Source of the DNA: a bacterium
GTDB taxonomy: Bacteria; Patescibacteriota; Minisyncoccia; Moranbacterales; GWC2-37-73
Direction: 5' to 3'
DNA length: 64,000 bases
NCBI GenBank assembly: GCA_037140955.1
Contig: JBAXDL010000001.1
Coordinates: forward strand, 114,319-178,318
Within the stretch, counting starts at the first letter, position 1. Each line of letters starts with the position of its first letter. This document shows positions 5,820 through 19,293 of this stretch, in pieces. The notes below the pieces were generated by a model. That model was given only the letters and a program-made list of their open reading frames with translations. It was not told the DNA's origin and searched no databases. The position numbers and the translations under genes are program-made.

Positions 5820-5848
5820 TTGACTATGTTGATAACTTACTATATACT
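5820..5848 (+). promoter_or_regulatory. sigma70-like promoter TTGACT-N17-TATACT driving the divergent small-ORF operon
   Basis: matches the spacing and -10 TATACT recurring at loci B and C; followed by a conserved ACG..GATGAAT +1 hairpin. Confidence 0.45.
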
Positions 5849-5918
5849 ACGTAGTCATGATGAATTAGCAATAATGATTCATGACCTCACAGTTCATTTT
5901 CAAATAATTAACAATACT

Positions 5919-5930
5919 AGTCGACGGACT
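5919..5930 (+). promoter_or_regulatory. leader hairpin AGTC-GACG-GACT immediately upstream of SD (copy A1)
   Basis: three copies in the window with compensatory stem changes; followed by TAAAACG..AGGAG and an ATG. Confidence 0.4.
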
Positions 5931-5949
5931 TAAAACGAGGAGGTGCGCC

Positions 5950-6168
5950 ATGGCAACACCATACGGGCAAATTACTACTGTAGTGCCGAGACGGGGCGGT
6001 CTCTCCATAGTTACAGAAAACTATGGAGATTCCGAGGACCACTGGGTTTTTGGAGATCGACGATCCAGACAAATTGCCAAAAGGCACTGGGTGCGTCAAT
6101 CAAACAAAGGCTCAGACTCGGGTGGAAACTATTGGCACACTTTCAAAAAATCTCCCATTGGAGGATGA
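5950..6168 (+). CDS. small hypothetical protein (72 aa, G/R-rich)
   Basis: strong SD GAGGAGG 6 nt before the ATG; lies in an unusually GC-rich segment. Confidence 0.4.
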   Translation: MATPYGQITTVVPRRGGLSIVTENYGDSEDHWVFGDRRSRQIAKRHWVRQSNKGSDSGGNYWHTFKKSPIGG

Positions 6169-6591
6169 GGAGATTAATAAACTTGAACTTTGACGGCGCT
6201 TCTGAATTCTCAGATCGCAATGGCTAGCCACCGTTATTGGGCTGCGGGGTGTGAAAGATCCTCGAAAACATAGACCAAGTTCATATATTGGCAAAGTTTA
6301 TGCCTCCATAATGAACCCAGTGGCAACGCATTTGCATAAGACTAATCAATATGTTGATTAGCAGCAGCGTTCTTTTAGTTGCCGAGTCTGTGTAATTCTT
6401 CAATCATTTAATATCTCGTCAATATTTTTTGATTGCGTAGTTTCTCCTGGCTATGTGAGGCCGAACGTTTTCGGTCAACAGGAAAAAAACAAAGGCAAGG
6501 AAAAATCCTTGTCTCTCTAATTGAAATAATTTCTTGAAAATTATTTCATAGGAGATAAAAGTTTTTCACAAACACTCAAAGGAGATGTGCC

Positions 6592-6834
6592 ATGGAAGCA
6601 ATCGTTACACTGTTTGAGTTAACCACGGAGCTGGAACTCTCATTAGCATTGATCAAGCTGGACAAAAAAGTAGAAGCTATATTGTCTGATGACAAACTTC
6701 GCTTTGAGCAATATCCTCATGATGAAAATCCATTTTACACAAACAATGCCAATTTACGTTGTAATGTTAGAGTAGAAGATGTTGTGACAATATTACAGAA
6801 CAAAATATTGATCATCAGAAAAATTTCAGTTTAA
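6592..6834 (+). CDS. small hypothetical protein (80 aa)
   Basis: SD AAAGGAG; acidic N-terminus. Confidence 0.4.
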   Translation: MEAIVTLFELTTELELSLALIKLDKKVEAILSDDKLRFEQYPHDENPFYTNNANLRCNVRVEDVVTILQNKILIIRKISV

Positions 6835-6843
6835 AAAAACTAA

Positions 6844-6855
6844 AGCCGACGGGCT
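6844..6855 (+). promoter_or_regulatory. leader hairpin AGCC-GACG-GGCT upstream of SD (copy A2)
   Basis: covaries with copies A1 and C. Confidence 0.4.
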
Positions 6856-6877
6856 AAAAACGCAAAGGAGTTGCACG

Positions 6878-7045
6878 ATGAATATTTTTGTAATTTTAGT
6901 TATGTGTTGGGCTGCTTGGTTACTATTGGCGCTTATCGTCTTGGTGACACTATACATTTTCCAGATTATTTACTACCTAGCTCTTTTTGGAGCAGGGCTA
7001 GGAATGATAATCGAAAAAGCGACAAGAAAGGAGACTATAAAATGA
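6878..7045 (+). CDS. 55-aa hydrophobic two-helix membrane peptide (MNIFVILVMCWAAWLLLALIVLVTLYIFQIIYYLALFGAGLGMIIEKATRKETIK)
   Basis: ATG 7 nt after AAAGGAG; strongly hydrophobic; preferred over the overlapping TTG-start frame 6871-7053. Confidence 0.4.
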   Translation: MNIFVILVMCWAAWLLLALIVLVTLYIFQIIYYLALFGAGLGMIIEKATRKETIK

Positions 7046-7078
7046 GGCGTTAGTCTATCATGACTATCGCCTTTTTTC
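7046..7078 (+). terminator. rho-independent terminator
   Basis: AGGCG..CGCCT stem followed by TTTTTT. Confidence 0.4.
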
Positions 7079-7121
7079 TTTTCTGCATTTTTACATTATA
7101 CATTATACAAAATACATTATA

Positions 7122-8015
7122 CTATCGTATTTCAATCCCCCTTAATGCCGCCACTCTCTCCTCAATCGGAGGATGTGTGGAAAAAAGTTTTGAAATGTTG
7201 CTACCCTTAAGCGGATTTGAAATGTATAGATGAGCTGTGGCGCGGTTTGCTGCTTCAAGTGGTTCTGGGTCAGCTGAAATTTTTTCCAAAGCCTTGGCAA
7301 GCCCTTCTGGATATCGTGTGAGGAGCGCAGCGGAAGCATCTGCCAAAAATTCTCTTTTGCGTGAGATGGCCACCTGAATCAACATGGCAGCAATTGGAGC
7401 CAAGATTGAAAGCACGATTGCCAAAATGAAAAAAATCATTTGCAATTGCCCGCCACCTTCATTGTCTGAACTTCTTTTACTGAAAATTCCATAGCGAAAC
7501 CAATCTGCCATCAAAGCAATAAATCCAACCAAAACGACAACAACTGTTGAAAGCAAAATGTCACGATTGCCAATGTGTGAAAGTTCATGCGCAATCACGC
7601 CTTCCAATTCGATTTTTTCAAGCTTGTCCAAGAGTCCGGTTGTCACACAAATCACTCCATGTTCAGGATCTCTTCCTGTTGCAAAAGCATTGGGTGCAGA
7701 GTCTTCAATGATATATATTTTTGGCGCCGGAAGACCAGCAGTTATGCACAGGTTTTCCACAAGGTGGTATAACTCCCTATTTTCCTCATGTGTAACCTCT
7801 TTTGCGCTACTCATAGAAAGCACAATTTTGTCACTCCACCAATATGAACCAAAACTCATGGCAATTGAAAACAAAACTGCACCATATAAAATCGAGCTGT
7901 TACCCATTGCTCCTGCAAAAACATAGCCCACGCCAATCACAAAAACAAGAAAACCTGAGATATATAACCAGGTTAATCTTGTGTTTTTGTCTGCTTGATC
8001 GTATAAAGTCGCCAT
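7122..8015 (-). CDS. htpX: zinc metalloprotease HtpX
   Basis: HELSHIGNRD (HEXXH) motif; 4 TM segments; C-terminal STHPPIEERV. Confidence 0.85.
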   Translation of the reverse strand: MATLYDQADKNTRLTWLYISGFLVFVIGVGYVFAGAMGNSSILYGAVLFSIAMSFGSYWWSDKIVLSMSSAKEVTHEENRELYHLVENLCITAGLPAPKIYIIEDSAPNAFATGRDPEHGVICVTTGLLDKLEKIELEGVIAHELSHIGNRDILLSTVVVVLVGFIALMADWFRYGIFSKRSSDNEGGGQLQMIFFILAIVLSILAPIAAMLIQVAISRKREFLADASAALLTRYPEGLAKALEKISADPEPLEAANRATAHLYISNPLKGSNISKLFSTHPPIEERVAALRGIEIR

Positions 8016-8017
8016 AA

Positions 8018-8569
8018 CTAAAATTGTACTTTTACATTTTCTTTTTCTGCCTCATCCGCTGCGAAAAATTCGCGAGCTACAAATCCAAGCATTCCTGCAA
8101 GCAAATTGGTTGGAAAAACTTGAAGCTTGGTGTTGAAGTCTCGCACGTTGCCATTATAAAACCTGCGAGAGGCTTGAATTTTGTCTTCAGTGTCGGCAAG
8201 TTCACGTTGAAGTTCCAAAAAGTTTTGATTAGCTTTCAAGTCTGGATAATTCTCAGAGACTGCAAACAAGGATTTCAATGTTCCAGAAAGCATGTTCTCG
8301 GCTTCCTGTTTTTCGCCTGTTGTTCCTGCGCTCATTGCTGCAGTTCTGGCTTTGGTCACATTTTCCAGCAATTCTTTTTCATGAGTGGCATATCCCTTCA
8401 CAGTGCTAATCAAATTCGGAATCAAATCATAACGACGTTTCAATTGCACATCAATATCACTCCAGGCCTCATCAACACGATTTTTGAGTGTAATTAGTCC
8501 GTTGTACATTCCTACCAAAACAAGTCCCAAAACAACTACCACTGCGACAATGATTAATCCAATTGACAT
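8018..8569 (-). CDS. lemA: LemA family protein
   Basis: N-terminal TM then the LemA signature NRVDEAWSDIDVQLKRRYDLIPNL. Confidence 0.8.
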   Translation of the reverse strand: MSIGLIIVAVVVVLGLVLVGMYNGLITLKNRVDEAWSDIDVQLKRRYDLIPNLISTVKGYATHEKELLENVTKARTAAMSAGTTGEKQEAENMLSGTLKSLFAVSENYPDLKANQNFLELQRELADTEDKIQASRRFYNGNVRDFNTKLQVFPTNLLAGMLGFVAREFFAADEAEKENVKVQF

Positions 8570-8773
8570 AAGAATTTTATGCCTACTGTTGTTGTAGACA
8601 TTGCTACCACAAAAGAGGCAAAATTAATTTATATTTATTATACAGCATATCTAATTATCAACAAACATCCACATCAAAAATACCTTTAAAACATAATACG
8701 CCCAGTGTCGTGCTAAAATTTCAATCTCTTTAATGTGACCACTAAACGTGCTATACTGAAAATGTAAGTACTT

Positions 8774-9244
8774 TTGTTTTTAAATAATTTTAATAAAAAT
8801 ATGCTAAAAGCAATTGCTCCCTATGCCGTGTTTCTCATTCCAATTATTGTTGGAATAATCATTCAGACAATCAAGTTCGCATTGTACAGCATTAAACATG
8901 GTTTCAATATTCGCTATGCCCTGACGCATGGTCACATGCCAAGCGCGCACACTGCCCTTGCTATTTCATTGGTAACTTCCGTTGGACACTATGAAGGATT
9001 TGGCGATGCCTCCTTTGCAATTGCTATGGTCGTGGCTTTCATCATCATTGATGATGCCACCAGACTTCGCATGCATCTTGGTGATCAAGGAAGATACTTG
9101 AACATGTTAATAGAACAGTTAAACATCAGTGAGGAGCAATACCCAAGACTCAAAGAACGCATGGGCCACAGAGTTAGCGAGGTCATCGTTGGTGGAATTG
9201 CAGGCTTCTTTCTGACAATACTCTTGATTCAAATTTTCATTTAA
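8774..9244 (+). CDS. divergent PAP2-like membrane protein (DUF212/YuiD-like)
   Basis: 156 aa; HGHMPSAHTAL motif; 3-4 TM. Confidence 0.5.
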   Translation: MFLNNFNKNMLKAIAPYAVFLIPIIVGIIIQTIKFALYSIKHGFNIRYALTHGHMPSAHTALAISLVTSVGHYEGFGDASFAIAMVVAFIIIDDATRLRMHLGDQGRYLNMLIEQLNISEEQYPRLKERMGHRVSEVIVGGIAGFFLTILLIQIFI

Positions 9245-9277
9245 GAAAAATAAAAGCCCCGGCAATGGGGCTTTTTA

Positions 9278-10606
9278 TTATATGGTTTTTTGCAATTCTT
9301 CTTGAATAACTTGCTTATCGTTCCATGGAATTTTTTTGTCACCCACAACCATGGACTCAAAATTCCCCATGCCAGTGACGCAAATAACGTCATTCTCTTT
9401 TGCAATTTCAAGTGCCTTTGCAATAGCAATGCGTCTGTCTGAAATTTTCCAAAGACTTTGGTTTTCAATCTTATCTTTTATCCCTACAGCAATTTCCTCA
9501 ATGATTTGCTCAGGATTTTCATGATATGGTTCGTCGTTGGTTAGCACAATAAAATCGGCATATTTTGAAACTACTTCACCCATAATCGGACGTTTTCCTT
9601 TGTCTCGATCGCCGCATGAACCGAAAACTGCAATAATTTTTGCGCCCTCTTTTTTCACATCAAAAAGCAGTTTGTACAATCTTTCAAGTGCATTTGGAGT
9701 TAAAGCAAAATCAACCAAAATATTGAGTCCCTTATTATTCTCCACGCTCTCCATGCGCCCTGCCACACCCTTTATTTTTCCAAGCGCCTCTTTGATCATT
9801 TCCAGCTCAATACCTTCACTCAGGGCCACGCAAGTTGCTGCAAGAGCATTCTCGATGTTAAATAAGCCAGGTAGATTAATTTTAAATTCTTCCCTAGGAT
9901 AAGCTTGAAGCAAAAAATTATAAATTTTAAATGTTGAACTAGAAATTCCAAGCTCAATATCCTTTGCAACAACCTTTTGGATTTTGTCATTTGGATTTTG
10001 TTTGGATTTTGTCGTTTGGATTTTGTCATTTGTCGAGTATCCATATGATTTTTCATTTGCATATTGCAGATAATCTTCAGACTTCTCCATATCCAGATTC
10101 ACAATAACCGTGCCCTTGTTTTTTGAGACCACCTCAAAAAGCATTTTTTTTGCTTGGCGATATTTCTCCATGGTTCCATGATAATCCAAATGTTCACGTG
10201 TCACATTGGTGATCACTGCAGTTTGAAATTCAATCCCCCACACGCGATGCTGATCGAGTGAATGTGAAGATGTTTCCAAAATCAAATACTCACAACCAGC
10301 CGAAGTAGCCTTGGAAATAAATTTCTGCAAGGCAAAAGCTGATTCTGTGGTGAAATGCGAAAGATTTTTTTCCTCCACACCATCAATCACAAAATTAATC
10401 GTTGAAGCCATGGCAACTTTCTTTCCAGATTCCTGAAAAATCTTTGTGATCATTTGCACTGTCGTTGTTTTTCCATCAGTGCCTGTCACACCAATCACCT
10501 TTATTTTTTTTGAAGGAAAACCAAAAACAACATTAGCCAGGATTGCCTGAGTTAAATGATAAATATTCTTGAGGGATTGAGGTATTGCCTGCTTAATTTT
10601 GTGCAT
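9278..10606 (-). CDS. Mur ligase family protein (MurE-like)
   Basis: VIGVTGTDGKTTT P-loop; Mur ligase middle and C-terminal domains; carries an in-frame tandem-repeat insertion. Confidence 0.7.
   Translation of the reverse strand: MHKIKQAIPQSLKNIYHLTQAILANVVFGFPSKKIKVIGVTGTDGKTTTVQMITKIFQESGKKVAMASTINFVIDGVEEKNLSHFTTESAFALQKFISKATSAGCEYLILETSSHSLDQHRVWGIEFQTAVITNVTREHLDYHGTMEKYRQAKKMLFEVVSKNKGTVIVNLDMEKSEDYLQYANEKSYGYSTNDKIQTTKSKQNPNDKIQKVVAKDIELGISSSTFKIYNFLLQAYPREEFKINLPGLFNIENALAATCVALSEGIELEMIKEALGKIKGVAGRMESVENNKGLNILVDFALTPNALERLYKLLFDVKKEGAKIIAVFGSCGDRDKGKRPIMGEVVSKYADFIVLTNDEPYHENPEQIIEEIAVGIKDKIENQSLWKISDRRIAIAKALEIAKENDVICVTGMGNFESMVVGDKKIPWNDKQVIQEELQKTI
9975..10040. repeat. imperfect ~12-13 bp tandem repeat (GGATTTTGTCATTT-like) inside the Mur ligase CDS
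   Basis: ttggattttgtcatttggattttgtttggattttgtcgtttggattttgtcatttg; encodes the low-complexity segment TNDKIQTTKSKQNPNDKIQ. Confidence 0.5.
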
Positions 10607-10709
10607 AATTTTTAATTTTTACAATTTTTAATTTTATAAATAAATTATAATGTTTTAATTTCCTTTTCAAAGGATAAGCTTGAAGCAAAAAACATTGAAA
10701 ATTCAAAAA

Positions 10710-11756
10710 TTATTTACGAAATTTCACTGCAAAAGCTTTTGCCGCCTGAAGCCCGCGATAGGCCCAATATTTTCGAGGATTTATGATGATATCATAACTT
10801 CCAGGAAAAACAACTGGTTTTGTTTTTGGTGAAAAACCAAGCTTGAAATCAGTAACACCTCTTAATGAAGAATTTTTATTCGTAATTGGTAAATTTGTGT
10901 TTAATTCGTAATTCGTAGAAATCCCACCGAAGTCATATTTCTTATACCCCAATACTTTAGCATCCAAAATCGCTTGCCATTGCAGCGAAAATGGTGCCAT
11001 CAAATTGCGATGCAAACTTCCAGAAGCTCCATGCAAATATGTCACCGTGTCACCAAAAAACAAAACTAGATTTGCCGCGATAATCTTGTCATCAACTTTT
11101 GCCACATAAATTCGCAGCATTTCACTTGGAAAAACTTCAATCATTTTTTGATAATATTCATCGGGATGTGCCGTGATCCCATGCCTCTGAGCCATTTCTT
11201 TGGTCAATCGCAAAAATGCATGCAAATATTTTTCTTGTTCTTTTTTTCCATTTTCTGATTGCGAGTGATCAATCAGCACACCCTTTTTGATAGCAATGCC
11301 AACGTTGTACCTTGTCTTGGTTTTCATTTCCGCCAAAAGCTGTTCTGATGGTTTTGAAACATCCAACACAAAAAGCTCTCTTGGTTGCATGTCATGCGGC
11401 GCTTTTACAACATTTTCTGAAACATTTTCTTTTATTAAATTTAGAAGCTCTTTATTTGCAGGCTCAATCCTGATCCAGCCAGCATTTTCCTTTTTTGCCA
11501 AATCAACCAGGTCCTGCATTTCATTTTTAATTTTGTCATTTTGATTTGAAAATTCATTGGAAATTGGAAATTGGAAATTGGAAATTGGACCACGAGGGAC
11601 GTATTCGTATTTCCCCACCATCGGAAGAACATGTTCAATAGTGCTCGCCAAAAAATCATCGTTTTCAATTCGATGTGTTTTTCTTCCAACTTTTTCTTGA
11701 AATTTTGCCCAAATCTCCGACTGCAAAAAATCAATATTTTGAATATTTTTTTCCAT
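10710..11756 (-). CDS. FemAB-family peptidyl transferase (FemX-like)
   Basis: 348 aa; FemAB acetyltransferase-fold motifs (LHGASGS...YDFGGI); contains the in-frame GAAATTG tandem repeat (FPISNFQFPISN). Confidence 0.7.
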   Translation of the reverse strand: MEKNIQNIDFLQSEIWAKFQEKVGRKTHRIENDDFLASTIEHVLPMVGKYEYVPRGPISNFQFPISNEFSNQNDKIKNEMQDLVDLAKKENAGWIRIEPANKELLNLIKENVSENVVKAPHDMQPRELFVLDVSKPSEQLLAEMKTKTRYNVGIAIKKGVLIDHSQSENGKKEQEKYLHAFLRLTKEMAQRHGITAHPDEYYQKMIEVFPSEMLRIYVAKVDDKIIAANLVLFFGDTVTYLHGASGSLHRNLMAPFSLQWQAILDAKVLGYKKYDFGGISTNYELNTNLPITNKNSSLRGVTDFKLGFSPKTKPVVFPGSYDIIINPRKYWAYRGLQAAKAFAVKFRK

Positions 11757-11810
11757 GAATAAAGTATACCAGGAAAAAGAAGAAAATAAAAAGATATTAT
11801 TAAGTAAATT

Positions 11811-12983
11811 TTAGTCAGCAATGCAACGAACAGACATGGCTGTTGCTTGAAGGTTGAGATTTGATGATATGATATCACCAGCAGCGTTGCTGCCAAAAAA
11901 CAAAGAAGTAAGAGTAACACTGCTTACGTTTTTTATAGCTGTTGATGAATAATAATGACCGTCAGTGTCCACATGATTTATTGTTCCATTGTAGGTACGA
12001 AATCCAGCAGGAACTAATTTTAGTTTTGAAGAATAAAGCTTACCCTTACAATCAAAGCCGAAGTAACAATTTTTAAATCCTATACCAGTAAGAAGAAAAT
12101 CCCATTCTGCAAATGTTGGAATATGAAATCCGTCAGGGCATGGATTACTGATACCAGGCGTGTTTGAATTTGTCAACCAAAGCTCAGTATTTACCTGCGT
12201 ATCAGGAAGCCAGCTAGAATAACTATAGCCAACCGGAGGTAGCCAAAACGGTGACTCTATAAAGCTTTCAGTATATGGTGCTACTACATTGTAAGATGAG
12301 TCTATTGTGACCTTATCATATTTTATAACACTACTTAATGCTAAAGGCGAAGGCTGCCCTCCCCAGGCTGTATATTGATGACCATCAGCTTTTCTGCCCC
12401 ATTGAAAATACCAACCATAGCCAGCATCATCAGTGGCTGAAGTTGGCAGGTCTTTTGCTCCCAAATTCCTATCCAACCAACATCTACCATCTTCAGCTAA
12501 AACTTTTCCGTAAGTAATTCCATCTTTAGAAACTGTTCCCGTGCAATCAACTCCAACCTTAACACTGACAGACCTGGCTGTTCCATTGTATGTTGCGACT
12601 GATTTAATAATTTTAACATCATTTCCCTTGCTGGTGTTGCAAATAATCGGAACCATTGCTGCTAGATCAGAATATAGATAAAGGTCATATCTTCCTGCTC
12701 CAGGAATTGATAAATTCTTAATCACACCATTATCGCAGGTGCTAAAAACAGGAATAGTATTTATTACTGAAGTTAAATTACTGCCAGCATTAATAGTTTT
12801 GATTGCAAGTTGAGCTCCACTATCAGCTGTTTGCAAAGATTGTACCGAGGAGGATGTTGCACTGGCTGATTTTTTTTCTATTATTGTTGATGAGGAAATA
12901 GCCACTGCAATAGATAGCATCATGCCAAGGACAATGAGAGAATATGCTAGGATGGAACCTTGTTTTTTGTTGCTTTTGAACAT
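11811..12983 (-). CDS. secreted/membrane-anchored protein with C-terminal Fib_succ_major-type domain (paralog A)
   Basis: N-terminal signal-anchor; C-terminus CPDGFHIPT..EWDFL...SVRCIAD resembles the Fibrobacter major paralogous domain. Confidence 0.55.
   Translation of the reverse strand: MFKSNKKQGSILAYSLIVLGMMLSIAVAISSSTIIEKKSASATSSSVQSLQTADSGAQLAIKTINAGSNLTSVINTIPVFSTCDNGVIKNLSIPGAGRYDLYLYSDLAAMVPIICNTSKGNDVKIIKSVATYNGTARSVSVKVGVDCTGTVSKDGITYGKVLAEDGRCWLDRNLGAKDLPTSATDDAGYGWYFQWGRKADGHQYTAWGGQPSPLALSSVIKYDKVTIDSSYNVVAPYTESFIESPFWLPPVGYSYSSWLPDTQVNTELWLTNSNTPGISNPCPDGFHIPTFAEWDFLLTGIGFKNCYFGFDCKGKLYSSKLKLVPAGFRTYNGTINHVDTDGHYYSSTAIKNVSSVTLTSLFFGSNAAGDIISSNLNLQATAMSVRCIAD
12346..12972. repeat. 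627-bp perfect direct repeat, copy 1 (identical to 13517-14143)
   Basis: identity read base-by-base; covers the N-terminal ~209 codons of paralog A. Confidence 0.9.
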
Positions 12984-13023
12984 ATTAGGAAATGAATACT
13001 TAAATTTTTATTGCTTGGAAAAA

Positions 13024-14172
13024 TTAGTCAGCAATGCAACGAAGCGACAATCCAAAATAGCGCCAAAGTGGACCAGCACCAATTTGATTATTATCAATAA
13101 TCGTCCAAAACATTTGATATTCATGACTAAATGGAGGACTAACCGTCCAAAAATAACCAACCTCACCCTTTCTCTCAATGCTCGCATAAGCATTTCCTCG
13201 ATAACCAGCGGATACAAATTTTAATTTTGAATTAAATGCTGGTACTATGCAGTTAGTGTTACAACCATACAGCCCAGCACTATTCAAAAGCTGCGCAAAT
13301 TCTTGCTGAGTTGGAACACGAAAGCCTGATGGACAAGGGTTATTACTACTTGTAAGATCCCAAAGACTATTGTCCTGTAATGTATCAGGAAGCCAATCAA
13401 ATTTACTAAATAGTGCTGGATTTCCATCTGCACCCAAAAAATATGTATTATACGGCGGCTGAACCTCATGATTAACTATGATTGCAAGATTATTCATCAC
13501 AGAGCTACTCAATGCCGGCGAAGGCTGCCCTCCCCAGGCTGTATATTGATGACCATCAGCTTTTCTGCCCCATTGAAAATACCAACCATAGCCAGCATCA
13601 TCAGTGGCTGAAGTTGGCAGGTCTTTTGCTCCCAAATTCCTATCCAACCAACATCTACCATCTTCAGCTAAAACTTTTCCGTAAGTAATTCCATCTTTAG
13701 AAACTGTTCCCGTGCAATCAACTCCAACCTTAACACTGACAGACCTGGCTGTTCCATTGTATGTTGCGACTGATTTAATAATTTTAACATCATTTCCCTT
13801 GCTGGTGTTGCAAATAATCGGAACCATTGCTGCTAGATCAGAATATAGATAAAGGTCATATCTTCCTGCTCCAGGAATTGATAAATTCTTAATCACACCA
13901 TTATCGCAGGTGCTAAAAACAGGAATAGTATTTATTACTGAAGTTAAATTACTGCCAGCATTAATAGTTTTGATTGCAAGTTGAGCTCCACTATCAGCTG
14001 TTTGCAAAGATTGTACCGAGGAGGATGTTGCACTGGCTGATTTTTTTTCTATTATTGTTGATGAGGAAATAGCCACTGCAATAGATAGCATCATGCCAAG
14101 GACAATGAGAGAATATGCTAGGATGGAACCTTGTTTTTTGTTGTTAAAAAAGGTTTTATTTTTTTTGAACAT
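13024..14172 (-). CDS. secreted/membrane-anchored protein with C-terminal Fib_succ_major-type domain (paralog B)
   Basis: N-terminus identical to paralog A; divergent C-terminus NPCPSGFRVPTQQEFAQL...SLRCIAD. Confidence 0.55.
   Translation of the reverse strand: MFKKNKTFFNNKKQGSILAYSLIVLGMMLSIAVAISSSTIIEKKSASATSSSVQSLQTADSGAQLAIKTINAGSNLTSVINTIPVFSTCDNGVIKNLSIPGAGRYDLYLYSDLAAMVPIICNTSKGNDVKIIKSVATYNGTARSVSVKVGVDCTGTVSKDGITYGKVLAEDGRCWLDRNLGAKDLPTSATDDAGYGWYFQWGRKADGHQYTAWGGQPSPALSSSVMNNLAIIVNHEVQPPYNTYFLGADGNPALFSKFDWLPDTLQDNSLWDLTSSNNPCPSGFRVPTQQEFAQLLNSAGLYGCNTNCIVPAFNSKLKFVSAGYRGNAYASIERKGEVGYFWTVSPPFSHEYQMFWTIIDNNQIGAGPLWRYFGLSLRCIAD
13517..14143. repeat. 627-bp perfect direct repeat, copy 2
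   Basis: identical to 12346-12972. Confidence 0.9.
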
Positions 14173-14227
14173 CTTTTTATTTTAGCAGTTACCCAAACTA
14201 AGTGATTGTTTTTCATTATACCACAAA

Positions 14228-14800
14228 CTACTTCCTACCAAGGCTCTTAAGCGCAAGTTTCACTCTCTCTCCAACGTCTTTAATCTCAACAGGAATTAGT
14301 TTGAGCGCTTCGCGTGACTCTGAAACAGAATATCCCATAGCAACAAGTGCCTCAAAGGCATCTGAGTCACTTTCAAGTTGTGCTTTTTCATAAATTGGCA
14401 TTTCTTTGATTTTATTTTTGAGTTCCAAAATAACCCTCTGAGCGATTTTCTTTCCAACACCTGAAACCCTAGTCAAAATTGATGGATCCTCATTCAAAAC
14501 GGCCATACCAATCGTTTTTGGATCAGCAATTGCCAAGATTCCCATCGCAGCTTTTGGTCCAATTCCTGAAATTGAAATCAAAAGCTCAAACATTTCCAAT
14601 TCAGCAATTTCCACAAATCCATACAATGCCAAAGTGTCTTCTCGCACATATGTATGAGTGTATAATTGCACAGATTGAGCGCCGGCAATCATCCCAAAGG
14701 TGTGCACAGTAACAAACACTTTATACCCAACCCCATTCACATCAATAATAGCATAGTTGTCATGCAACAAATCTATCTTGCCTGTTAATTTTGCAATCAT
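14228..14800 (-). CDS. ruvA: Holliday junction DNA helicase RuvA
   Basis: MIAKLTGKI...GVGYKVFV N-terminus; HhH motifs. Confidence 0.9.
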   Translation of the reverse strand: MIAKLTGKIDLLHDNYAIIDVNGVGYKVFVTVHTFGMIAGAQSVQLYTHTYVREDTLALYGFVEIAELEMFELLISISGIGPKAAMGILAIADPKTIGMAVLNEDPSILTRVSGVGKKIAQRVILELKNKIKEMPIYEKAQLESDSDAFEALVAMGYSVSESREALKLIPVEIKDVGERVKLALKSLGRK

Positions 14801-14824
14801 ATCTTTATTTTTTCATTTTTATAT

Positions 14825-17134
14825 TTAAACAGCAGGAACAACAGGTGGAATAACTGGATCCGGAACAACAACAGGATCAGGCTCTGGAATCTTAAAATAT
14901 TCTGATTTACAATCAATAGTTGGCAACGGATCAAGACTTTTATTTTTCTTTTTATTGTCCTTTAGCCAACCTTGTACGCCCTTTTCCCAATTTTTATACT
15001 GCAAATCAGCAGTAGGATCTTTTGGCGCATCGCCACGTGGATTTTCTTTGTTTATGTAATACAAAATATCATGCACATCACCAAATGTTTTTTTCTCGGT
15101 GGTGTCTGATGGGCAAGAATCATTTTGCAAGCAATAATCTCCCTTGTAACCTCTAGCAGTCATTAAGCAAACCTTCACATCTTTTTGAATATTTTCTTCT
15201 CCGTTTAGTACTGGCTTTCCAGTATCCTCTTTTTCATATTTTGGGAATTGCTCAACCATACTGTTTCCCAATGCTTGATTCATGAAAGATCTCCAAATTG
15301 GAGCTGCAACAACAATACCATCAGATCCAACCTTCATTGATGAATTATTGTTGTTTCCAGCCCAAACACCAACAGCAATTGAAGGAGTGAATCCCATTGC
15401 CCAACCATCACGAAATTCATTGGTTGTTCCAGTTTTGGCAGCAACTGGACGATCTGTAAATTTGAATGGATTGTTGTCTCCAAACACCGGAGCGCGATAT
15501 TCATTAGTGGACATGATGTGATCAAGCATGGCAACATATTTTTCTTCCACAACTCTTTGACCAGGATTGTCTTTATATTGTTCAAGCACGGTTCCATCTT
15601 TGTCTTGAATTTTCATGATCGCCACACTATCACGATGCACACCACCAGCAGCCAAAGCGCCATAAGCATTAACATGATCAAGCAAAGTAACCTCTCCTCC
15701 ACCCAACACTAAAGACAAACCGTAACGATCGGGCTCATTCAATCCCTTGATGCCAAGACCTTTTGCAAGAAAAATTGAATCCTTAACTCCTGCCAAATAT
15801 AGGGTCTTAACTGCTGGAATGTTTAGTGACATTGCCAAAGCATTTTTCATTTGCAGTGGACCATGAAATTTTCCATCATAATTTTGCGGAGAATAGTCTT
15901 TTCCAGTATCAGTAGAAAAATTGGTTGGCACGTCATACAGTAATGTTTCTGGAGTATACCCTTTAGTAAAAGCAGTCAAATAAACATACGGCTTGAAAGA
16001 TGAGCCTGGTTGACGATTAGCAAGAGCAACATTAACCTGACCATCAATAGATTTGTCAAAATAATTTTTACTACCAACCATGGCCAAAATTTGACCAGTT
16101 CTTGGATCCTCAGCAACCAAGGCAGCATTTGCTGCTTTGTTAGGAGCATTTTTTGCAGCACCCTCTGAAACAGCCTTTTCTGCAGCTTGCTGCTTGTCCC
16201 AATCAATTGTTGTATAAACTTTCAATCCTCCTTGTTCAACGGCTTGTTCACCATATTTGTTCACCAAATAATCTTTCACATACATCACAAAATGAGGAGC
16301 AGAAATATTGTCTTGCTTTGGATTAACTTCTGCCAAAATATCAACACCCTTAGCATCATCAGCTTGCTGCTGTGTGATATATCCCTGATCAGCCATTTTT
16401 TGCAAAGCAGAACTTTTTCTTCCAACCAATGCATCAAGATGAGAACCAAAAGGAGAATAGTACGTTGGCGCATTTGGCAAAGAAGCAAGCAATGCTGCTT
16501 CCGGCAAAGTCAAATCTTTAGCATTTTTTCCAAAAAAAGTTTGTGCAGCAGCCTCGATTCCATAAGCACTAGAGCCATATGGAATCTGATTCAAATACAT
16601 CGCCAAAATTTCATCTTTTGAATATTTTTGTTCAAGCTCAATTGCTAAGATCAATTCTTTGATTTTTCTGATAATTGTTTTTTCACTAGTAAGCATGGAC
16701 ACCTTAATGAACTGCTGGGTGATTGTGCTTCCTCCCTGCGCCGCTCCACCCTTAATGATATCTTTAAGGGCACTACGCAAAATAGATTTTGGATCAACGC
16801 CATGGTGAGTATAAAACCCCTGATCCTCCAATGCTATGGTGGCATATTTAACATTGTCAGGAATTTCATTGAAAGGAACAATTGTTCTTTTCTCTTCTCC
16901 ATGCACATCATATAGCAAGTGCTCACCTGTTCTGTCGTATATTTTAGTGGATTGAATAATCAACTTTGCATCAAGCGAACTTGCACTTGGCAAATCTTTT
17001 GCAAAATACAAAAAAATACCAACAACAGAAATCACACCCAGAGCAAAAAGTGCTCCCAGAATTTTTGCAGCAAGTTTTAGCTTGCTCTTGTGTGTGCTAT
17101 TTCTAAAATTTTTTGAAATAAAAACTGGTTCCAT
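14825..17134 (-). CDS. penicillin-binding protein 1A (bifunctional transglycosylase/transpeptidase)
   Basis: GT51 motifs (EDQGFYTHHG); SXXK (SSFKP); KTG; Pro-rich C-terminal tail. Confidence 0.9.
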   Translation of the reverse strand: MEPVFISKNFRNSTHKSKLKLAAKILGALFALGVISVVGIFLYFAKDLPSASSLDAKLIIQSTKIYDRTGEHLLYDVHGEEKRTIVPFNEIPDNVKYATIALEDQGFYTHHGVDPKSILRSALKDIIKGGAAQGGSTITQQFIKVSMLTSEKTIIRKIKELILAIELEQKYSKDEILAMYLNQIPYGSSAYGIEAAAQTFFGKNAKDLTLPEAALLASLPNAPTYYSPFGSHLDALVGRKSSALQKMADQGYITQQQADDAKGVDILAEVNPKQDNISAPHFVMYVKDYLVNKYGEQAVEQGGLKVYTTIDWDKQQAAEKAVSEGAAKNAPNKAANAALVAEDPRTGQILAMVGSKNYFDKSIDGQVNVALANRQPGSSFKPYVYLTAFTKGYTPETLLYDVPTNFSTDTGKDYSPQNYDGKFHGPLQMKNALAMSLNIPAVKTLYLAGVKDSIFLAKGLGIKGLNEPDRYGLSLVLGGGEVTLLDHVNAYGALAAGGVHRDSVAIMKIQDKDGTVLEQYKDNPGQRVVEEKYVAMLDHIMSTNEYRAPVFGDNNPFKFTDRPVAAKTGTTNEFRDGWAMGFTPSIAVGVWAGNNNNSSMKVGSDGIVVAAPIWRSFMNQALGNSMVEQFPKYEKEDTGKPVLNGEENIQKDVKVCLMTARGYKGDYCLQNDSCPSDTTEKKTFGDVHDILYYINKENPRGDAPKDPTADLQYKNWEKGVQGWLKDNKKKNKSLDPLPTIDCKSEYFKIPEPDPVVVPDPVIPPVVPAV

Positions 17135-17265
17135 AGTAAAAAATAATAATAGATAAAACGTATATTCATTATAAGCCGATAATGCTTTTTTTCAAAGCTG
17201 CTTTACTATACACTAATTATTAATTTTATCAAGATATCCAACATATATCTTTCTTGATCAATATA

Positions 17266-17290
17266 AAAAATCTGTAACTCACTTGTTACA
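17266..17290. terminator. bidirectional hairpin terminator
   Basis: AATCTGTAAC-TCACTT-GTTACAGATT flanked by A/T runs. Confidence 0.45.
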
Positions 17291-18310
17291 GATTTTTTCA
17301 TACAATTCTAAATAATTTTTTGCCATAACAAGGCTATCAAAATTATCCTTAGCGTATTTCCTACATTCTTTCCTGTCAAATTTGTCAGTGTTCTTCACTG
17401 CGGTAACTAACTCAGCAAAATCATCAGAAAGAAAGGCTATTTTTTCATTTTGTAGCATTTCCGGCAAGGGCCCGATAGTTGTGCCAATAATAGGAGTTCC
17501 GCAAGCCAGGGCCTCTCCCACCACCATAGGGCAAACTTCCGGCCTCCTGATTGGCAAAAGCAAAGCTGATGCACTTTTTAAGTATTCATAAATTTCCACA
17601 TGCGAAACTTCTCCCATATAGATTATATTTATCCCATCCAAAAATGGTTCTATTTTTTCTGCAAAAAATGCTTTTCTCTCCTTGGTGTTTCCGATTCTGC
17701 CAAAAATTAGTAATTTAACACCTGACTTTATTGCAATTTCAATAGCAGTATCTATCCCTTTTTGATCATTCAATCTTCCAACAAACATCAAATACTCCCC
17801 TTTTTCAAAAGAATAGCTTATTTTTTTTGTTGGCACTCCGTTATAAATAATCGCATCTGTTTTTAAAGTTCCTGATTGAGATTGACTGAGTGCATTAGTA
17901 TATAATTTGGTTTTTTCTATAATCTCAAAGGCAGCATCATCAATTCTGTTGTGAAAAGAAAGTAGACATGGAATTGAAACTTTTTCGCACAATGCGCTAG
18001 CATATCGCTGGGAGTGCAAGTGAATGATGTCAAAATCGCTTTCAAATTCTAAAACTTTTTCCTGACTGGCGATTTTTATATCCCTAAAGTCTCTTGGACT
18101 GAGCTTGGAAATGCTTGGCATGTTCCAAATACTTTTTTCTAATGAAACAATGTGTTTTGCTTTTGTGTGCCAATCACCTGGAGCAAACAAAGTCACATCA
18201 ATACCAAGCTCCAAAAAAGCATCTGTTAGATTCTGCGTAACAATCTCAGGACCACCCGTATCACCAAAAGGCGGGGCAACCATAGCAACACGCAGTTTTT
18301 TATTTGTCAT
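17279..18310 (-). CDS. glycosyltransferase family 4
   Basis: GT4 N-terminal and C-terminal Rossmann motifs. Confidence 0.7.
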   Translation of the reverse strand: MTNKKLRVAMVAPPFGDTGGPEIVTQNLTDAFLELGIDVTLFAPGDWHTKAKHIVSLEKSIWNMPSISKLSPRDFRDIKIASQEKVLEFESDFDIIHLHSQRYASALCEKVSIPCLLSFHNRIDDAAFEIIEKTKLYTNALSQSQSGTLKTDAIIYNGVPTKKISYSFEKGEYLMFVGRLNDQKGIDTAIEIAIKSGVKLLIFGRIGNTKERKAFFAEKIEPFLDGINIIYMGEVSHVEIYEYLKSASALLLPIRRPEVCPMVVGEALACGTPIIGTTIGPLPEMLQNEKIAFLSDDFAELVTAVKNTDKFDRKECRKYAKDNFDSLVMAKNYLELYEKICNK

Positions 18311-19260
18311 TATAATAACTCACTTATAGATTCAAAGTTTTCTTGTTTTGTTTTTTCATCTGCAAGCATTGTGACAAGATCAATGCCTGGAGTGGTGTTC
18401 ATTTCAATGAAATATGGTTTTCCGAAGTTATCAAAAATAAAATCCAGTGAATATTGAGGATTGTGAAAAACATTAATTTTCTTGTTTATTCTTTTCAGTA
18501 TTTCTTCTAAGTTTTTTGGAATAAGATCAAGTGAAATCATTTTTCCACTAGCACCTTGATGCAAGTTAGTGAAAAGTGATTTTGGTGCAGCAATACGAGA
18601 AAGAGCATAGGCCAATTTTCCTCCTTGATATACAAGCCTCAAATCTGCAATTTCAGTTTCTTTTGAAATTCCAGGAATTCCTTTTTCGCTCAAAACAAAT
18701 TCCTGCACCAAAACGGGAAAAGAATAATTTTCAGACAATGCTTTTTTTCTTTCTCCAATAAAAATACCAAAACCACCAGAACCATACAGTGGCTTAATTA
18801 CAATTTTTTCAGCTGAAAATTTTCCTATTGCCGCAATAAGTTCAGCTTTATTGTTTGCGACTTTTGACATTGGCATAAACTCACCAAACATCACGTATTG
18901 AGACAACTTATTGTTAAAAGTTGCTCGAAAAAGTGGAGAATTAAAAAGAATAGTTTTTTGTGCCATTTGAAGCTTGAATTCTAGCATTGGATAGTCATAT
19001 TTGCTCAAAATTTTATCATACACCAAATCAGGTGAAATTTCTTTTTCTATTTTTTCCCAAACATTATTTCGATAAGCCCAAGCTTTAGTGAAAACATTTT
19101 TTTCAAGATCATACCATTTAATACTTGCTCTATACAATTCAATATTAGCTTTCTCAGCTCTTTTCATCCAATCTTGCACAGCCAACCTGGTTCCCTCGTT
19201 TGTAATAGGAATTTCTTTTTTCCAATCATCACCTGCATATGCAATAACAATATTTTTCAT
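18310..19260 (-). CDS. ATP-grasp domain protein
   Basis: VIKPLYGSGGFGIFI...LVQEFV ATP-grasp motifs. Confidence 0.6.
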   Translation of the reverse strand: MKNIVIAYAGDDWKKEIPITNEGTRLAVQDWMKRAEKANIELYRASIKWYDLEKNVFTKAWAYRNNVWEKIEKEISPDLVYDKILSKYDYPMLEFKLQMAQKTILFNSPLFRATFNNKLSQYVMFGEFMPMSKVANNKAELIAAIGKFSAEKIVIKPLYGSGGFGIFIGERKKALSENYSFPVLVQEFVLSEKGIPGISKETEIADLRLVYQGGKLAYALSRIAAPKSLFTNLHQGASGKMISLDLIPKNLEEILKRINKKINVFHNPQYSLDFIFDNFGKPYFIEMNTTPGIDLVTMLADEKTKQENFESISELL

Positions 19261-19293
19261 ACTTTTTAGCTAACATTTATTCAATCAAACTAA

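What the first reader, a model, noticed from the sequence alone, without database searches (positions are those of the whole stretch)
11811..14172. 627-bp perfectly identical direct repeat spanning the 5' two-thirds of two adjacent secreted-protein paralogs with divergent C-terminal domains
Positions 12346-12972 and 13517-14143 are identical base for base. The two encoded proteins share their signal-anchor and N-terminal ~209 residues. They diverge completely in their C-terminal Fib_succ-type domains (ending SVRCIAD and SLRCIAD). A constant N-terminus with swappable C-terminal domains, kept homogeneous by gene conversion, resembles a cassette-variation surface-protein system. It is also a hotspot for deletion and duplication.
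Basis: seen in the sequence. Interest (0 to 1): 0.55.

Follow-up and report, generated by a model that had tools for sequence, protein, structure and literature searches.

The report
Tandem pilin-like adhesin paralogs, shared stalk
Two neighbouring genes in an uncultured Moranbacteria-like (CPR) genome appear to encode pilin-like surface proteins with a nearly identical stalk and very different lectin-like binding heads; this is a real but fairly ordinary product of gene duplication and recombination, not a programmed cassette-switching system.

Summary
The 627-bp repeat (12346-12972 = 13517-14143) is exact in this window. The tandem arrangement is real: three independent assemblies of the same population break exactly k-1 bases into the repeat, and one 961-bp contig spans the junction between the genes. 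The perfect identity is not reproduced. An ENA assembly and a JGI protein both show 7 differences in a 76-bp patch (12405-12480) of the downstream copy, so true identity may be 98.9%.

Each gene encodes two modules. The first is a type-IV-pilin-like N-terminal module of the PilX_N type, with an invariant Tyr where canonical pilins have Glu5. The second is a FISUMP head with a C-type-lectin/FGE-like fold. The repeat ends inside the FISUMP domain, not between domains.

The 3' parts are homologous but saturated (48% nt identity, dS about 2). Both ends of the identical tract abut indels. The best reading is old tandem paralogs whose 5' part is homogenised by gene conversion.

The genes sit in a conserved slot between ruvA and a femAB gene. 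In related genomes this slot holds 1-3 genes with the same N-module and different heads (FISUMP, GLUG, Cys-rich tails). I found no silent cassettes, inverted repeats, adjacent recombinase or DGR parts. It is a new member of the known "modular pilin" kind and of moderate interest.

The parts
13024..14172 (-). Gene B (upstream paralog, 382 aa; NCBI WCI36_00710 = P0002): pilin-like N-module plus FISUMP head
   Evidence: ORF. Identical to P0002. TIGR02145 hit over aa 159-382, E = 1.3e-5, below the curated cutoff.
11811..12983 (-). Gene A (downstream paralog, 390 aa; NCBI WCI36_00705 = P0001): pilin-like N-module plus FISUMP head
   Evidence: ORF. Identical to P0001. TIGR02145 hit over aa 153-390, E = 2.9e-7, below the curated cutoff. 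AF2 models.
13517..14143 (-). Upstream copy of the 627-bp repeat (gene B codons 10-219)
   Evidence: Exact match to 12346-12972. Independent contigs end 140 nt (k=141) and 30 nt (k=31) inside it.
12346..12972 (-). Downstream copy of the 627-bp repeat (gene A codons 4-213)
   Evidence: The ENA junction contig L171 runs 141 nt into it.
12405..12480 (-). 76-bp patch of gene A where independent assemblies (ENA contig, JGI protein P0121) differ from the window at 7 positions (3 synonymous changes; K177R, D178A, Y192L)
   Evidence: The B-copy equivalent, 13576-13651, matches the window in ENA contig L171.
12540..12983 (-). Gene A pilin-like N-module (aa 1-148): short basic leader ending in Gly9, a hydrophobic helix, then a 4-stranded sheet
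13711..14172 (-). Gene B pilin-like N-module (aa 1-154). It is identical to that of gene A from codon 10 and carries a 6-codon longer leader.
11814..12536 (-). Gene A FISUMP (C-type-lectin/FGE-like) head, aa 150-390. The first 64 or so residues lie inside the repeat.
13027..13707 (-). Gene B FISUMP head, aa 156-382
   Evidence: It keeps all family-invariant residues.
11811..12345 (-). Divergent 3' part of gene A (the ligand-facing portion of the head)
   Evidence: Against the gene B 3' part: 48% nt and 33% aa identity, and 24 of 51 identical codons at conserved residues against 21.6 expected. NG86 gives dS 1.95 and dN 0.76.
13024..13516 (-). Divergent 3' part of gene B
   Evidence: It is no closer to gene A's 3' part (60 bits) than to orthologs in other genomes (51-68 bits).
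12984..13023 (-). 40-nt spacer between the gene B stop and the gene A start. It is unique sequence with no promoter-like match.
   Evidence: It is present in the independent ENA contig L171.
14215..14223 (-). TGGTATAAT (an extended -10-like motif) just after the ruvA stop codon and 43 nt upstream of the gene B ATG. It is a possible promoter for a B-A transcript.
   Evidence: Read directly from the sequence. It is not scored by the scan, which needs a -35 match. This is an inference only.
14228..14800 (-). ruvA, the upstream border of the conserved slot
   Evidence: Pfam RuvA_N/HHH_5. Synteny in L001-L003, L005, L081 and L164-L169.
10710..11756 (-). femAB-family gene, the downstream border of the conserved slot
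   Evidence: Pfam FemAB, E = 9e-39. Synteny as for ruvA. The GLUG-headed homolog P0098 is also followed directly by a FemAB gene.

Best explanation
The locus holds two tandem, co-oriented paralogs of a fast-evolving gene. That gene occupies a conserved slot between ruvA and a femAB-family gene in Moranbacteria-like Patescibacteria.

Each protein has two modules. The N-terminal roughly 148 residues form a type-IV-pilin-like 'lollipop': a short basic leader ending in Gly, a long hydrophobic helix and a four-stranded sheet. It is of the PilX_N/GspK-like kind, which lacks Glu5. The remaining 240 or so residues form a FISUMP head with a C-type-lectin/FGE-like fold.

Shown:
- The gene was duplicated in tandem.
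- The last roughly 530 bp, which encode the part of the lectin-like head that forms the binding face in related folds, are anciently diverged.
- The first 627 bp are identical or nearly identical.

Inferred for the DNA: RecA-type non-reciprocal recombination (gene conversion) between the two copies repeatedly homogenises the 5' region. The tracts stop where indels interrupt homology. The patch seen in other assemblies is either an island that escaped conversion or a separate short tract.

Inferred for the proteins: both are probably made from one transcript and inserted by the shared helix. They would be displayed on the cell surface, most likely at the tip of type IV pili, as two adhesins with the same stalk and different glycan or ligand specificity. 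This would widen the range of partner or host surfaces the cell can bind.

It is not a programmed switch. The repeat does make pop-out deletion or amplification by unequal crossover possible.
For: The repeat and tandem order are real.

DNA-level evidence:
- Rate heterogeneity: 0 of 627 differences in the 5' part. The 3' part shows 48% nt identity and synonymous saturation, with 24 of 51 identical codons against 21.6 expected and dS of 1.95. Fast positive selection after a recent duplication therefore cannot explain the 3' divergence.
- The 3' end of the identical tract abuts a 3-nt indel. The 5' end abuts an 18-nt indel downstream of a shared ATGTTCAAAA.
- In ENA and JGI data, 7 differences cluster in 76 bp, flanked by 492 and 59 identical bases. 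This is a mosaic, which independent point mutation is very unlikely to produce.
- Both copies keep every family-invariant residue.

Protein-level evidence:
- A T2SSE pilus-type ATPase lies in the window at 31530-34556.

Context and precedents:
- Related genomes carry 1 copy (L001-L003, L081, L164-L169) or 3 copies (L005) in the same slot. RuvA is 68-89% identical between genomes, but the N-module only 34-50% and the FISUMP 3' part only 24-38%.
- Modular pilins with grafted adhesin modules are widespread. IPR011871 is listed among the 15 most frequent architectures; I recall this entry as the FISUMP domain (PMC8179133).
- Saccharibacteria PilX1 and PilX2 are minor pilins with lectin-like C-terminal domains and no predicted PilD signal. 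PilX2 is needed for host binding (PMC11623550).
Against: - The N-terminus is not a canonical class III signal. There is no N_methyl (PF07963) hit, position +5 is an invariant Tyr rather than Glu, and the PilX_N match for the window proteins is only E = 0.24.
- The genes sit among cell-wall and recombination genes, not in a pilus operon.
- No close relative (above 41% identity) other than the same population is available, so conversion was not seen happening in a lineage comparison.
- The 3' parts are as far from each other as from orthologs elsewhere. Import of one 3' part by recombination with a foreign allele therefore cannot be excluded.
- The window's perfect identity may be an assembler effect.
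- Expression, processing and localisation are all untested.
Confidence: 0.6

Rival explanations
1. Recent duplication plus head import. The whole gene was duplicated recently, which explains the identical 5' part. The 3' part of one copy was then replaced by homologous or homology-facilitated recombination with a diverged allele from another lineage. On this reading the pair is a snapshot of head swapping rather than old paralogs under concerted evolution.
For: Heads at this slot do not track the phylogeny of the flanking genes. The genomes with the most similar RuvA (L164 at 89%, L169 at 88%, L167 at 85%) carry non-FISUMP heads, while more distant ones (L001 and L002 at 78-79%) carry FISUMP. 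Head replacement therefore does occur at this locus. The two 3' parts are no closer to each other than to orthologs in other genomes.
Against: The non-coding flanks of the two copies share no similarity. Identity starts only after an 18-nt indel inside the coding region and ends at a 3-nt indel. This fits conversion tracts bounded by heterology better than a fresh duplication junction. A donor with enough nucleotide identity to recombine inside the FISUMP 5' part would have to be a close relative, and none is seen among 5.8 billion proteins. The 76-bp patch needs an extra event in any case.
Confidence: 0.27
2. The perfect identity is an assembly effect. The tandem repeat is real, but the assembler that produced this contig collapsed the 7-difference bubble. 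It wrote the gene B version of the patch into gene A, so the true repeat is 98.9% identical with a 492-bp perfect core.
For: Two independent sources agree on the variant patch in gene A: the ENA MEGAHIT contig L163 and the JGI protein P0121. They show no other difference over 7.8 kb (L163), 6.8 kb (L161) and 0.96 kb (L171). Gene B has the window version in both. From general knowledge of de Bruijn assemblers, bubble removal followed by repeat resolution produces exactly this outcome.
Against: The window contig could come from another sample or subpopulation in which a short conversion tract really erased the patch. No reads are available to me. This rival concerns only 7 bases and is compatible with the main explanation.
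Confidence: 0.5
3. Programmed cassette or antigenic-variation system. On this reading, one expression site with a constant 5' region exchanges C-terminal cassettes. The exchange would occur by gene conversion from silent copies, site-specific inversion (a shufflon) or DGR mutagenesis.
For: The architecture has a constant 5' part and a variable 3' part. The head fold is the same as in DGR variable proteins. FISUMP domains are reported as DGR targets in freshwater MAGs (PMC11661182). A large serine recombinase gene lies at 403-1767.
Against: - There are only two copies, both full-length with their own start codons.
- No further copy or fragment exists in the 64 kb by tblastn or low-stringency blastn.
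- There are no inverted repeats at the locus.
- The recombinase is 10 kb away, with housekeeping genes in between.
- No reverse transcriptase was found among the ORFs scanned.
- There is no template-repeat-like match to either 3' end.
- The 3' parts are saturated at synonymous sites and show no shared tracts.
Confidence: 0.05
4. Not pilus subunits. The proteins are signal-anchored cell-surface or cell-wall-associated lectin-like proteins. Their pilin-like module serves only as a membrane stalk, possibly acting with the neighbouring peptidoglycan genes (PBP1A, FemAB, Mur ligase).
For: The neighbourhood is conserved with cell-wall genes in every related genome. There is no Glu5, no N_methyl motif and no pilus genes adjacent.
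Against: The fold matches are to minor pilins and pseudopilins. These include GspK, which also lacks Glu5 (the GspK point is from general knowledge). The heads found on this N-module (lectin-like, GLUG, tail-collar-like, small Cys-rich) are typical adhesin modules and change rapidly, unlike cell-wall enzymes. FISUMP heads fused to canonical N_methyl pilin N-termini exist among the homologs (P0034, P0047, P0062, P0065).
Confidence: 0.3

Closest known systems
Modular type IV pilins (S. sanguinis PilB/PilC; survey in Raynaud et al. 2021, PMC8179133)
   Same: A small pilin module carries a grafted C-terminal ligand-binding module. The architecture is frequent in CPR genomes. The survey lists IPR011871 among the most common grafted modules; I recall that entry as the FISUMP domain. 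Canonical N_methyl+FISUMP proteins appear among the homologs found here.
   Different: The N-terminus here is of the PilX_N type. It has no detectable IPR012902/PF07963 motif and carries Tyr instead of Glu5. The genes lie outside any pilus operon and are tandemly duplicated with a homogenised pilin module.
Saccharibacteria TM7x minor pilins PilX1/PilX2 (PMC11623550)
   Same: These are Patescibacteria proteins with a lollipop pilin fold plus a lectin-like C-terminal domain and no predicted PilD-type signal peptide. They are candidate tip adhesins for host binding.
   Different: The head folds differ (jelly-roll and beta-propeller there, C-type-lectin/FGE-like here). Sequence homology was not tested. 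Those genes lie in pilus loci. No tandem pair with a shared stalk is described there.
GspK/PilX-class tip minor (pseudo)pilins
   Different: In GspK the extra domain is inserted into the sheet rather than appended. No GspI/GspJ-like partners were identified here.
DGR variable proteins (TvpA, TaqVP, Mtd) and the Legionella Lcl C-terminal domain
   Different: The window contains no reverse transcriptase, template repeat or Avd gene. Divergence between the copies affects all bases and synonymous sites, not adenine-specific positions.
PilV shufflon of IncI plasmids (R64, TP114; PMC9045228) and Neisseria pilE/pilS antigenic variation
   Same: Both have a pilin with a constant N-terminal region and alternative C-terminal segments that change binding specificity. 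The Neisseria system works by gene conversion.
   Different: Those systems use invertible segments with an Rci recombinase, or promoterless silent cassettes that donate to one expression site. Here there are two complete co-oriented genes, no inverted repeats and no silent copies. The converted part is the constant region, not the variable one.
Partial concerted evolution of paralogous adhesin genes (e.g. Helicobacter pylori babA/babB; tufA/tufB as the classic bacterial case), cited from general knowledge
   Same: Paralogs keep identical segments through RecA-dependent gene conversion while a ligand-binding segment stays divergent. The identical segments also allow chimera formation and copy-number change.
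   Different: The protein family and organism differ. Here the copies are directly tandem, so unequal crossover and pop-out are also possible.

Membership tests
FISUMP / Fib_succ_major domain (TIGR02145, PF09603) | Significant match to the family HMM above the curated cutoff | tested here: inconclusive
   TIGR02145 scores: gene A E = 2.9e-7, 31.4 bits (cutoff 41.65); gene B E = 1.3e-5, 26 bits. PF09603 scores are 26.3 and 25.1 bits (cutoff 33.9). All 16 aligned family members match PF09603, best E = 3.9e-11. The motifs CWLDRNLGA, YFQWGR, NPCP.GF..PT and S.RCI.D are conserved. This is a divergent member.
FISUMP / Fib_succ_major domain (TIGR02145, PF09603) | C-type-lectin/FGE-like fold shared with the related Lcl_C/DUF1566 domain | tested here: met
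Type IV pilin / modular pilin | Class III signal peptide: short basic leader ending in Gly, followed by about 20 hydrophobic residues | tested here: met
   MFKSNKKQG|SILAYSLIVLGMMLSIAVAI in gene A. Gene B has a leader 6 residues longer. This is a sequence pattern only; cleavage was not tested.
Type IV pilin / modular pilin | N-methylation motif (PF07963/IPR012902) with Glu at +5 | tested here: not met
   No PF07963 hit at E <= 1. Position +5 is Tyr14, nearly invariant in the family.
Type IV pilin / modular pilin | Lollipop fold: long N-terminal helix packed on a 4-stranded antiparallel sheet | tested here: met
Type IV pilin / modular pilin | Processing by prepilin peptidase and incorporation into a filament built by a T4P machine | not testable with these tools
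   The only indication is a T2SSE-type ATPase in the window at 31530-34556. No peptidase, platform protein or major pilin was identified within the 64 kb.
PilX_N (PF14341) proteins | Match to PF14341 at the N-terminus above the curated cutoff | tested here: inconclusive
   Window protein: E = 0.24, 11.9 bits (cutoff 25.5), over residues 8-56. Fourteen of 16 family members match at E <= 1, best 1.9e-7. Precomputed PF14341 hits exist for P0008, P0011, P0013, P0071 and P0098/99.
Cassette-based antigenic variation (pilE/pilS type) | Silent, promoterless partial copies that donate variable sequence to an expression locus | tested here: not met
   No further copy or fragment in the 64 kb. Both copies are complete ORFs. 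The rest of the 211-kb contig is not visible.
Shufflon / invertible-segment pilin variation | Inverted recombination sites that flank alternative 3' segments, plus an adjacent site-specific recombinase | tested here: not met
   There are 0 inverted repeats in 10000-16500. The neighbours are ruvA and femAB. The nearest recombinase gene is at 403-1767.
DGR target (variable protein) | A template repeat about 75-90% identical to the 3' variable region with adenine-specific differences, plus a DGR reverse transcriptase nearby | tested here: not met
   Low-stringency blastn of both 3' parts against the window finds only the mutual 26-nt gene ends. No RT domain was found among the ORFs scanned. Only 64 of 211 kb were examined.

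The most novel reading that the evidence does not exclude
The ruvA-femAB slot may be a dedicated host-recognition locus of Moranbacteria. It would hold a pilus-tip (or surface-stalk) module that stays constant, while adhesin heads (C-type-lectin-like FISUMP, GLUG, tail-collar-like, small Cys-rich) are exchanged between lineages. The exchange would use recombination anchored in the conserved pilin module and in femAB. On this reading the tandem pair seen here is an intermediate of that exchange. Conversion tracts that reach into the first third of the lectin head would then create chimeric heads. That would be a recombination-based counterpart of DGR diversification of the same fold.
Probability: 0.25. 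Interest if true: 0.55.

Novelty: new member of a known kind. Interest (0 to 1): 0.35.

Why it matters
How ultrasmall CPR/Patescibacteria recognise and attach to partner cells is largely unknown outside a few cultivated Saccharibacteria. This locus offers a concrete and easily located candidate in Moranbacteria. It always sits between ruvA and femAB and encodes a pilin-like stalk with a rapidly changing, exchangeable lectin-type head, present in 1-3 copies. If the heads determine partner specificity, their variation could be used to predict or compare host ranges from metagenomes.

The case is also a useful caution for repeat calls in MAGs. The repeat is genuine, but its 'perfect' identity disappears in two independent assemblies of the same population.

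Tried and rejected
- Exact look-ups of the two full proteins and of the JGI variant found no contigs. The look-ups that worked were the flanking RuvA and FemAB proteins, and a partial gene B product predicted from the k-mer logic.
Its DNA was therefore never seen.
- I looked for a third paralog and for a DGR template repeat and found none.
- I looked for reverse transcriptase and pilus genes by Pfam scans of about 45 ORFs. There was no RT, and the only pilus-related gene was one T2SSE ATPase.
- The promoter/terminator scan was no better than shuffled sequence.
- I tried to decide which 3' part is the 'resident' one by similarity to syntenic orthologs. All distances are saturated at 51-68 bits, so this was uninformative.
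- The N-module-only protein search returned just 16 hits because of the word-index limit.
- Three ideas were rejected:
  - A strain-chimera assembly, because the junction contig exists independently.
  - Positive selection after a recent duplication, because synonymous sites are saturated.
  - A domain-boundary breakpoint, because the boundary lies inside the FISUMP domain.
Full report
**1. The observation**

Positions 12346-12972 and 13517-14143 are identical over exactly 627 bp. Ungapped identity at the same offset falls to about 30% just outside. It is the only long repeat in the window, so chance is excluded.

The repeat lies in two minus-strand ORFs, called here gene A (11811-12983, 390 aa) and gene B (13024-14172, 382 aa). 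Their products are identical from residue 4 (A) or 10 (B) through residue 213 or 219, and about 30% identical afterwards. Both are deposited as hypothetical proteins WCI36_00705 and WCI36_00710 of a 'MAG: bacterium' on a 211-kb contig.

**2. Is it an assembly artefact?**

Exact-protein look-ups with the flanking RuvA and FemAB proteins retrieved independent assemblies of what is evidently the same population.

| Source | Contig | Window span | Mismatches | Relation to the repeat |
|---|---|---|---|---|
| ENA ERZ27300110 (MEGAHIT, k=141) | k141_392761 | 20800..14003 | 0 | ends 140 nt (k-1) inside the upstream copy |
| Logan SRR7053542 (k=31) | SRR7053542_108755 | 17789..14114 | 0 | ends 30 nt (k-1) inside the upstream copy |
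| ENA ERZ27300110 | k141_35444 | 12621..4710 | 7, all at 12405-12480 | starts 141 nt beyond the outermost variant |

From the k-mer logic I predicted a roughly 960-bp middle contig whose partial gene B product would be residues 128-382. Looking that product up returned ENA contig k141_560243 (961 bp). It equals window 13792..12832 with no mismatch. It spans the gene B copy of the patch, all of the gene B 3' part, the 40-nt spacer, the gene A start and 141 nt of the gene A repeat copy.

The tandem order ruvA - B - A - femAB, and a graph branch at the repeat edges, are therefore present in independent data.

The seven variant bases change codons 168, 173 and 193 synonymously and give K177R, D178A and Y192L. 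The resulting protein is exactly the JGI/IMG protein P0121, from a 196-kb contig. Gene B is identical in JGI.

In two independent assemblies, then, the copies are 620/627 identical. The pattern is a 492-bp perfect core, a 76-bp patch at 9% divergence, and 59 further identical bases. The window's 100% is either a collapsed bubble or a real haplotype in which the patch has been converted. I cannot decide this without reads.

**3. What the genes encode**

Pfam and NCBIfam give sub-threshold but consistent FISUMP (Fib_succ_major, TIGR02145) matches. In the NCBIfam model these span aa 153-390 (A) and 159-382 (B). The repeat boundary at codon 213 therefore lies inside the FISUMP domain, not at a domain junction.

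An alignment of 16 full-length homologs (33-43% identical apart from the paralog) shows the family motifs and invariant cysteines. Both copies keep all of them.

Fourteen of the 16 members match PilX_N (PF14341) at the N-terminus, with best E = 1.9e-7. The window protein itself reaches only E = 0.24.

Structure predictions point the same way:
- An AlphaFold model of residues 1-153 has pLDDT 84.8. It shows a helix over 11-65 followed by four strands, the pilin 'lollipop'.
- Foldseek against the PDB and a sequence-profile search of the PDB were uninformative.

The N-terminus reads MFKSNKKQG|SILAYSLIVLGMML. It has a short basic leader ending in Gly, as in prepilins. It also has a family-invariant Tyr at +5 in place of Glu, and no N_methyl motif.

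The proteins are best described as bimodular, PilX/GspK-like minor-pilin-like proteins with a C-type-lectin-fold head.

Precedents:
- Modular pilins are a known and widespread class. One of the 15 most frequent grafted modules listed is IPR011871, which I recall as the FISUMP entry (PMC8179133).
- In the Patescibacterium TM7x, PilX1 and PilX2 are minor pilins with lectin-like C-terminal domains and no predicted PilD signal. PilX2 is needed for efficient host binding (PMC11623550).
- Among the homologs found here, several FISUMP proteins carry canonical N_methyl pilin N-termini.
- The window also encodes a 1008-aa T2SSE-type ATPase at 31530-34556.

**4. Genomic context: a conserved, hypervariable slot**

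All genes from 9278 to 22925 are on the minus strand. In transcription order they are:
- yebC (22209-22925) and ruvC (21575-22063);
- a 7TM_transglut gene, two ATP-grasp genes and a GT4 glycosyltransferase;
- PBP1A and ruvA;
- gene B and gene A;
- femAB and a Mur ligase.

The same order recurs in Moranbacteria and relatives. The occupants of the slot are:
- One FISUMP-headed gene sits between ruvA and femAB in L001, L002, L003 and L081.
- L005 has three N-module genes: 601 aa with a Cys-rich extension, 153 aa with the N-module alone, and at least 310 aa with FISUMP.
- One N-module gene with a short Cys-rich tail sits there in L164-166 (P0127, 206 aa), L167/168 (P0041, 243 aa) and L169 (P0059, 255 aa).
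- The GLUG/M26_N-headed P0098 is also followed directly by femAB.

The flanking genes are far more conserved than the slot gene. RuvA is 68-89% identical and PBP1A 64-84%. The N-module is 34-50% identical, the first third of the FISUMP head 49-71%, and the rest of the head 24-38%.

Head type does not follow flank similarity. The three genomes with the most similar RuvA (85-89%) lack FISUMP, while more distant ones have it.

At evolutionary scale, 'constant N-module, exchangeable head' is correct. Copy number at the slot varies from one to three.

**5. How the mosaic arose**

In the 3' part, 161 codons align. Nucleotide identity is 48% and amino-acid identity 33%. At conserved degenerate residues the codons are identical 24 times out of 51, against 21.6 expected from codon usage alone. 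NG86 gives dS = 1.95 and dN = 0.76.

Synonymous sites are saturated. The 3' divergence is therefore ancient and is not the product of rapid selection after a recent duplication. The 5' part has no differences.

The two 3' parts are as far from each other (60 bits) as from orthologs in other genomes (51-68 bits).

The identical tract is wholly intragenic. Its 3' end coincides with a 3-nt indel, after which identity is still about 75% for some 20 bases before decaying. Its 5' end lies just after an 18-nt indel, which follows a shared ATGTTCAAAA start. The upstream non-coding sequences are unrelated.

A short 31-nt similarity covers the last codons and the stop of both genes. The copies are therefore homologous from start to stop codon, which points to an old whole-gene tandem duplication.

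The bounded identical tract, together with the patch mosaic in other assemblies, is what repeated non-reciprocal recombination between tandem paralogs produces. By a rough estimate, seven independent mutations would fall within 76 of 627 bases with probability of order 1e-5.

The alternative is a recent duplication followed by import of a foreign 3' part. It cannot be excluded, because head replacement evidently occurs at this slot. It explains the tract boundaries and the unrelated flanks less well.

**6. What it is not**

- There is no third copy or fragment and no template-repeat-like match to either 3' end.
- There are no inverted repeats at the locus.
- No recombinase is adjacent. The only one is a serine recombinase at 403-1767.
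- No reverse transcriptase was found among about 45 ORFs scanned.
- Promoter and terminator scans are at background level.
- A TGGTATAAT motif at 14223-14215, 43 nt upstream of gene B, and the bare 40-nt spacer before gene A suggest co-transcription. This is an inference.

A programmed cassette, shufflon or DGR mechanism is therefore not supported within the visible 64 kb. FISUMP domains are nevertheless documented DGR targets in freshwater MAGs (PMC11661182), so the rest of the genome should be checked.

**7. Likely function**

Shown:
- a near-identical stalk and first third of the head;
- divergent but intact remainders of a lectin-like head;
- a pilin-like fold;
- rapid evolution and head turnover at a fixed locus.

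Inferred: both proteins are displayed on the surface, most likely as tip subunits of type IV pili. Subunits that sit at the tip, such as GspK, do without Glu5 (general knowledge). This would give the cell two binding specificities on one structural base.

The direct repeat also permits a 1171-bp pop-out that leaves a single gene with gene B's start and gene A's head, or amplification. This is consistent with the 1-3 copies seen in relatives.

A non-pilus, signal-anchored surface protein remains a serious alternative, at about 0.3.

**8. Wider pattern**

Tandem FISUMP paralogs whose 5' ends are much more similar than the rest occur in unrelated genomes:
- L017: 95% over 250 bp.
- L044: 93% over 427 bp.
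- L066: 93% over 320 bp.
- L125: 90-94%.
- L048: two identical 308-aa ORFs in a perfect 1077-bp tandem duplication.

Partial homogenisation of tandem copies therefore looks common in this 'major paralogous' family. I did not follow these cases further.

**9. Verdict**

It is partly wrong: there is no cassette system, and the breakpoint lies inside the domain.

The thing itself is a new member of the known class of modular pilin-like adhesins. Its features are ordinary concerted evolution of the shared part and a neat conserved hypervariable slot. Interest is moderate (0.35).

Noticed in passing
window 31530-34556 (-): A 1008-aa protein with two T2SSE (PilB/PilT-type ATPase) stretches fused in one ORF (Pfam E = 4e-227). 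It is the only pilus or secretion machinery gene recognised in the 64 kb.
   Followed up: partly
window 4946-5707, 27825-28589, 29398-30174, 43578-44324 (all -), 47139-47885 (+): Five paralogous TrmB-family regulator genes of about 250 aa are scattered through the window. This is an unusually high density for a small genome.
   Followed up: no
window 403-1767 (+): A large serine recombinase (Resolvase plus Recombinase domains) lies at the window edge. A weak 50-nt inverted repeat (76% complementary) pairs 2174-2223 with 31474-31523.
   Followed up: no
window 54520-57156 (-) and 57157-58110: dnaN and dnaA are adjacent, followed by a roughly 950-bp stretch with only one small ORF before yidC. 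This is probably the replication origin region.
   Followed up: no
window 38500-42500; repeats at 40199-40242 and 41427-41470: A block of small ORFs that I did not scan against Pfam carries a 44-nt intergenic sequence repeated at 84% identity, 1228 bp apart. It may be a small mobile or accessory island.
   Followed up: no
window 23382-25379 (-): A 665-aa protein with three Lamin Tail Domain stretches and a PKD domain. It is another likely surface protein, 9 kb from the finding.
   Followed up: no
window 14134-14169 (-), 5' end of gene B: The extra leader codons of gene B contain A8, T6 and A6 homopolymer runs directly after the start codon. This is a possible slippage-prone tract, but such runs are unremarkable in a 37% GC genome.
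   Followed up: no
L048 79-2232 (Saccharibacteria MAG); L057 7844-10588: L048 has a perfect 1077-bp head-to-tail duplication that gives two identical 308-aa FISUMP ORFs. L057 has a 914-aa ORF with a 100% identical internal repeat of 621-bp period. Each is either very recent duplication or an assembly effect.
   Followed up: no
L017 9520-10844; L044 8753-11193; L066 4511-7946; L125 7936-11092: Other tandem FISUMP paralog pairs, in Paceibacterota and Bacteroidota MAGs, also show 90-95% identity confined to the 5' 250-950 bp. Partial homogenisation of N-terminal regions may be general in this family.
   Followed up: partly
L167 12937-13314: In a related Moranbacteria contig an Avd-like gene (PF05635, weak PF22296 bAvd) is inserted between LemA and the M48 peptidase, 4 kb from the slot gene. 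No reverse transcriptase is visible in the fetched 16.7 kb.
   Followed up: no
L005 7439-10897: Moranbacteria UBA1362 carries three N-module genes in the slot. One has a FISUMP-like region followed by a long Cys-rich C-terminal extension (601 aa in all). Another consists of the pilin-like module alone (153 aa).
   Followed up: partly
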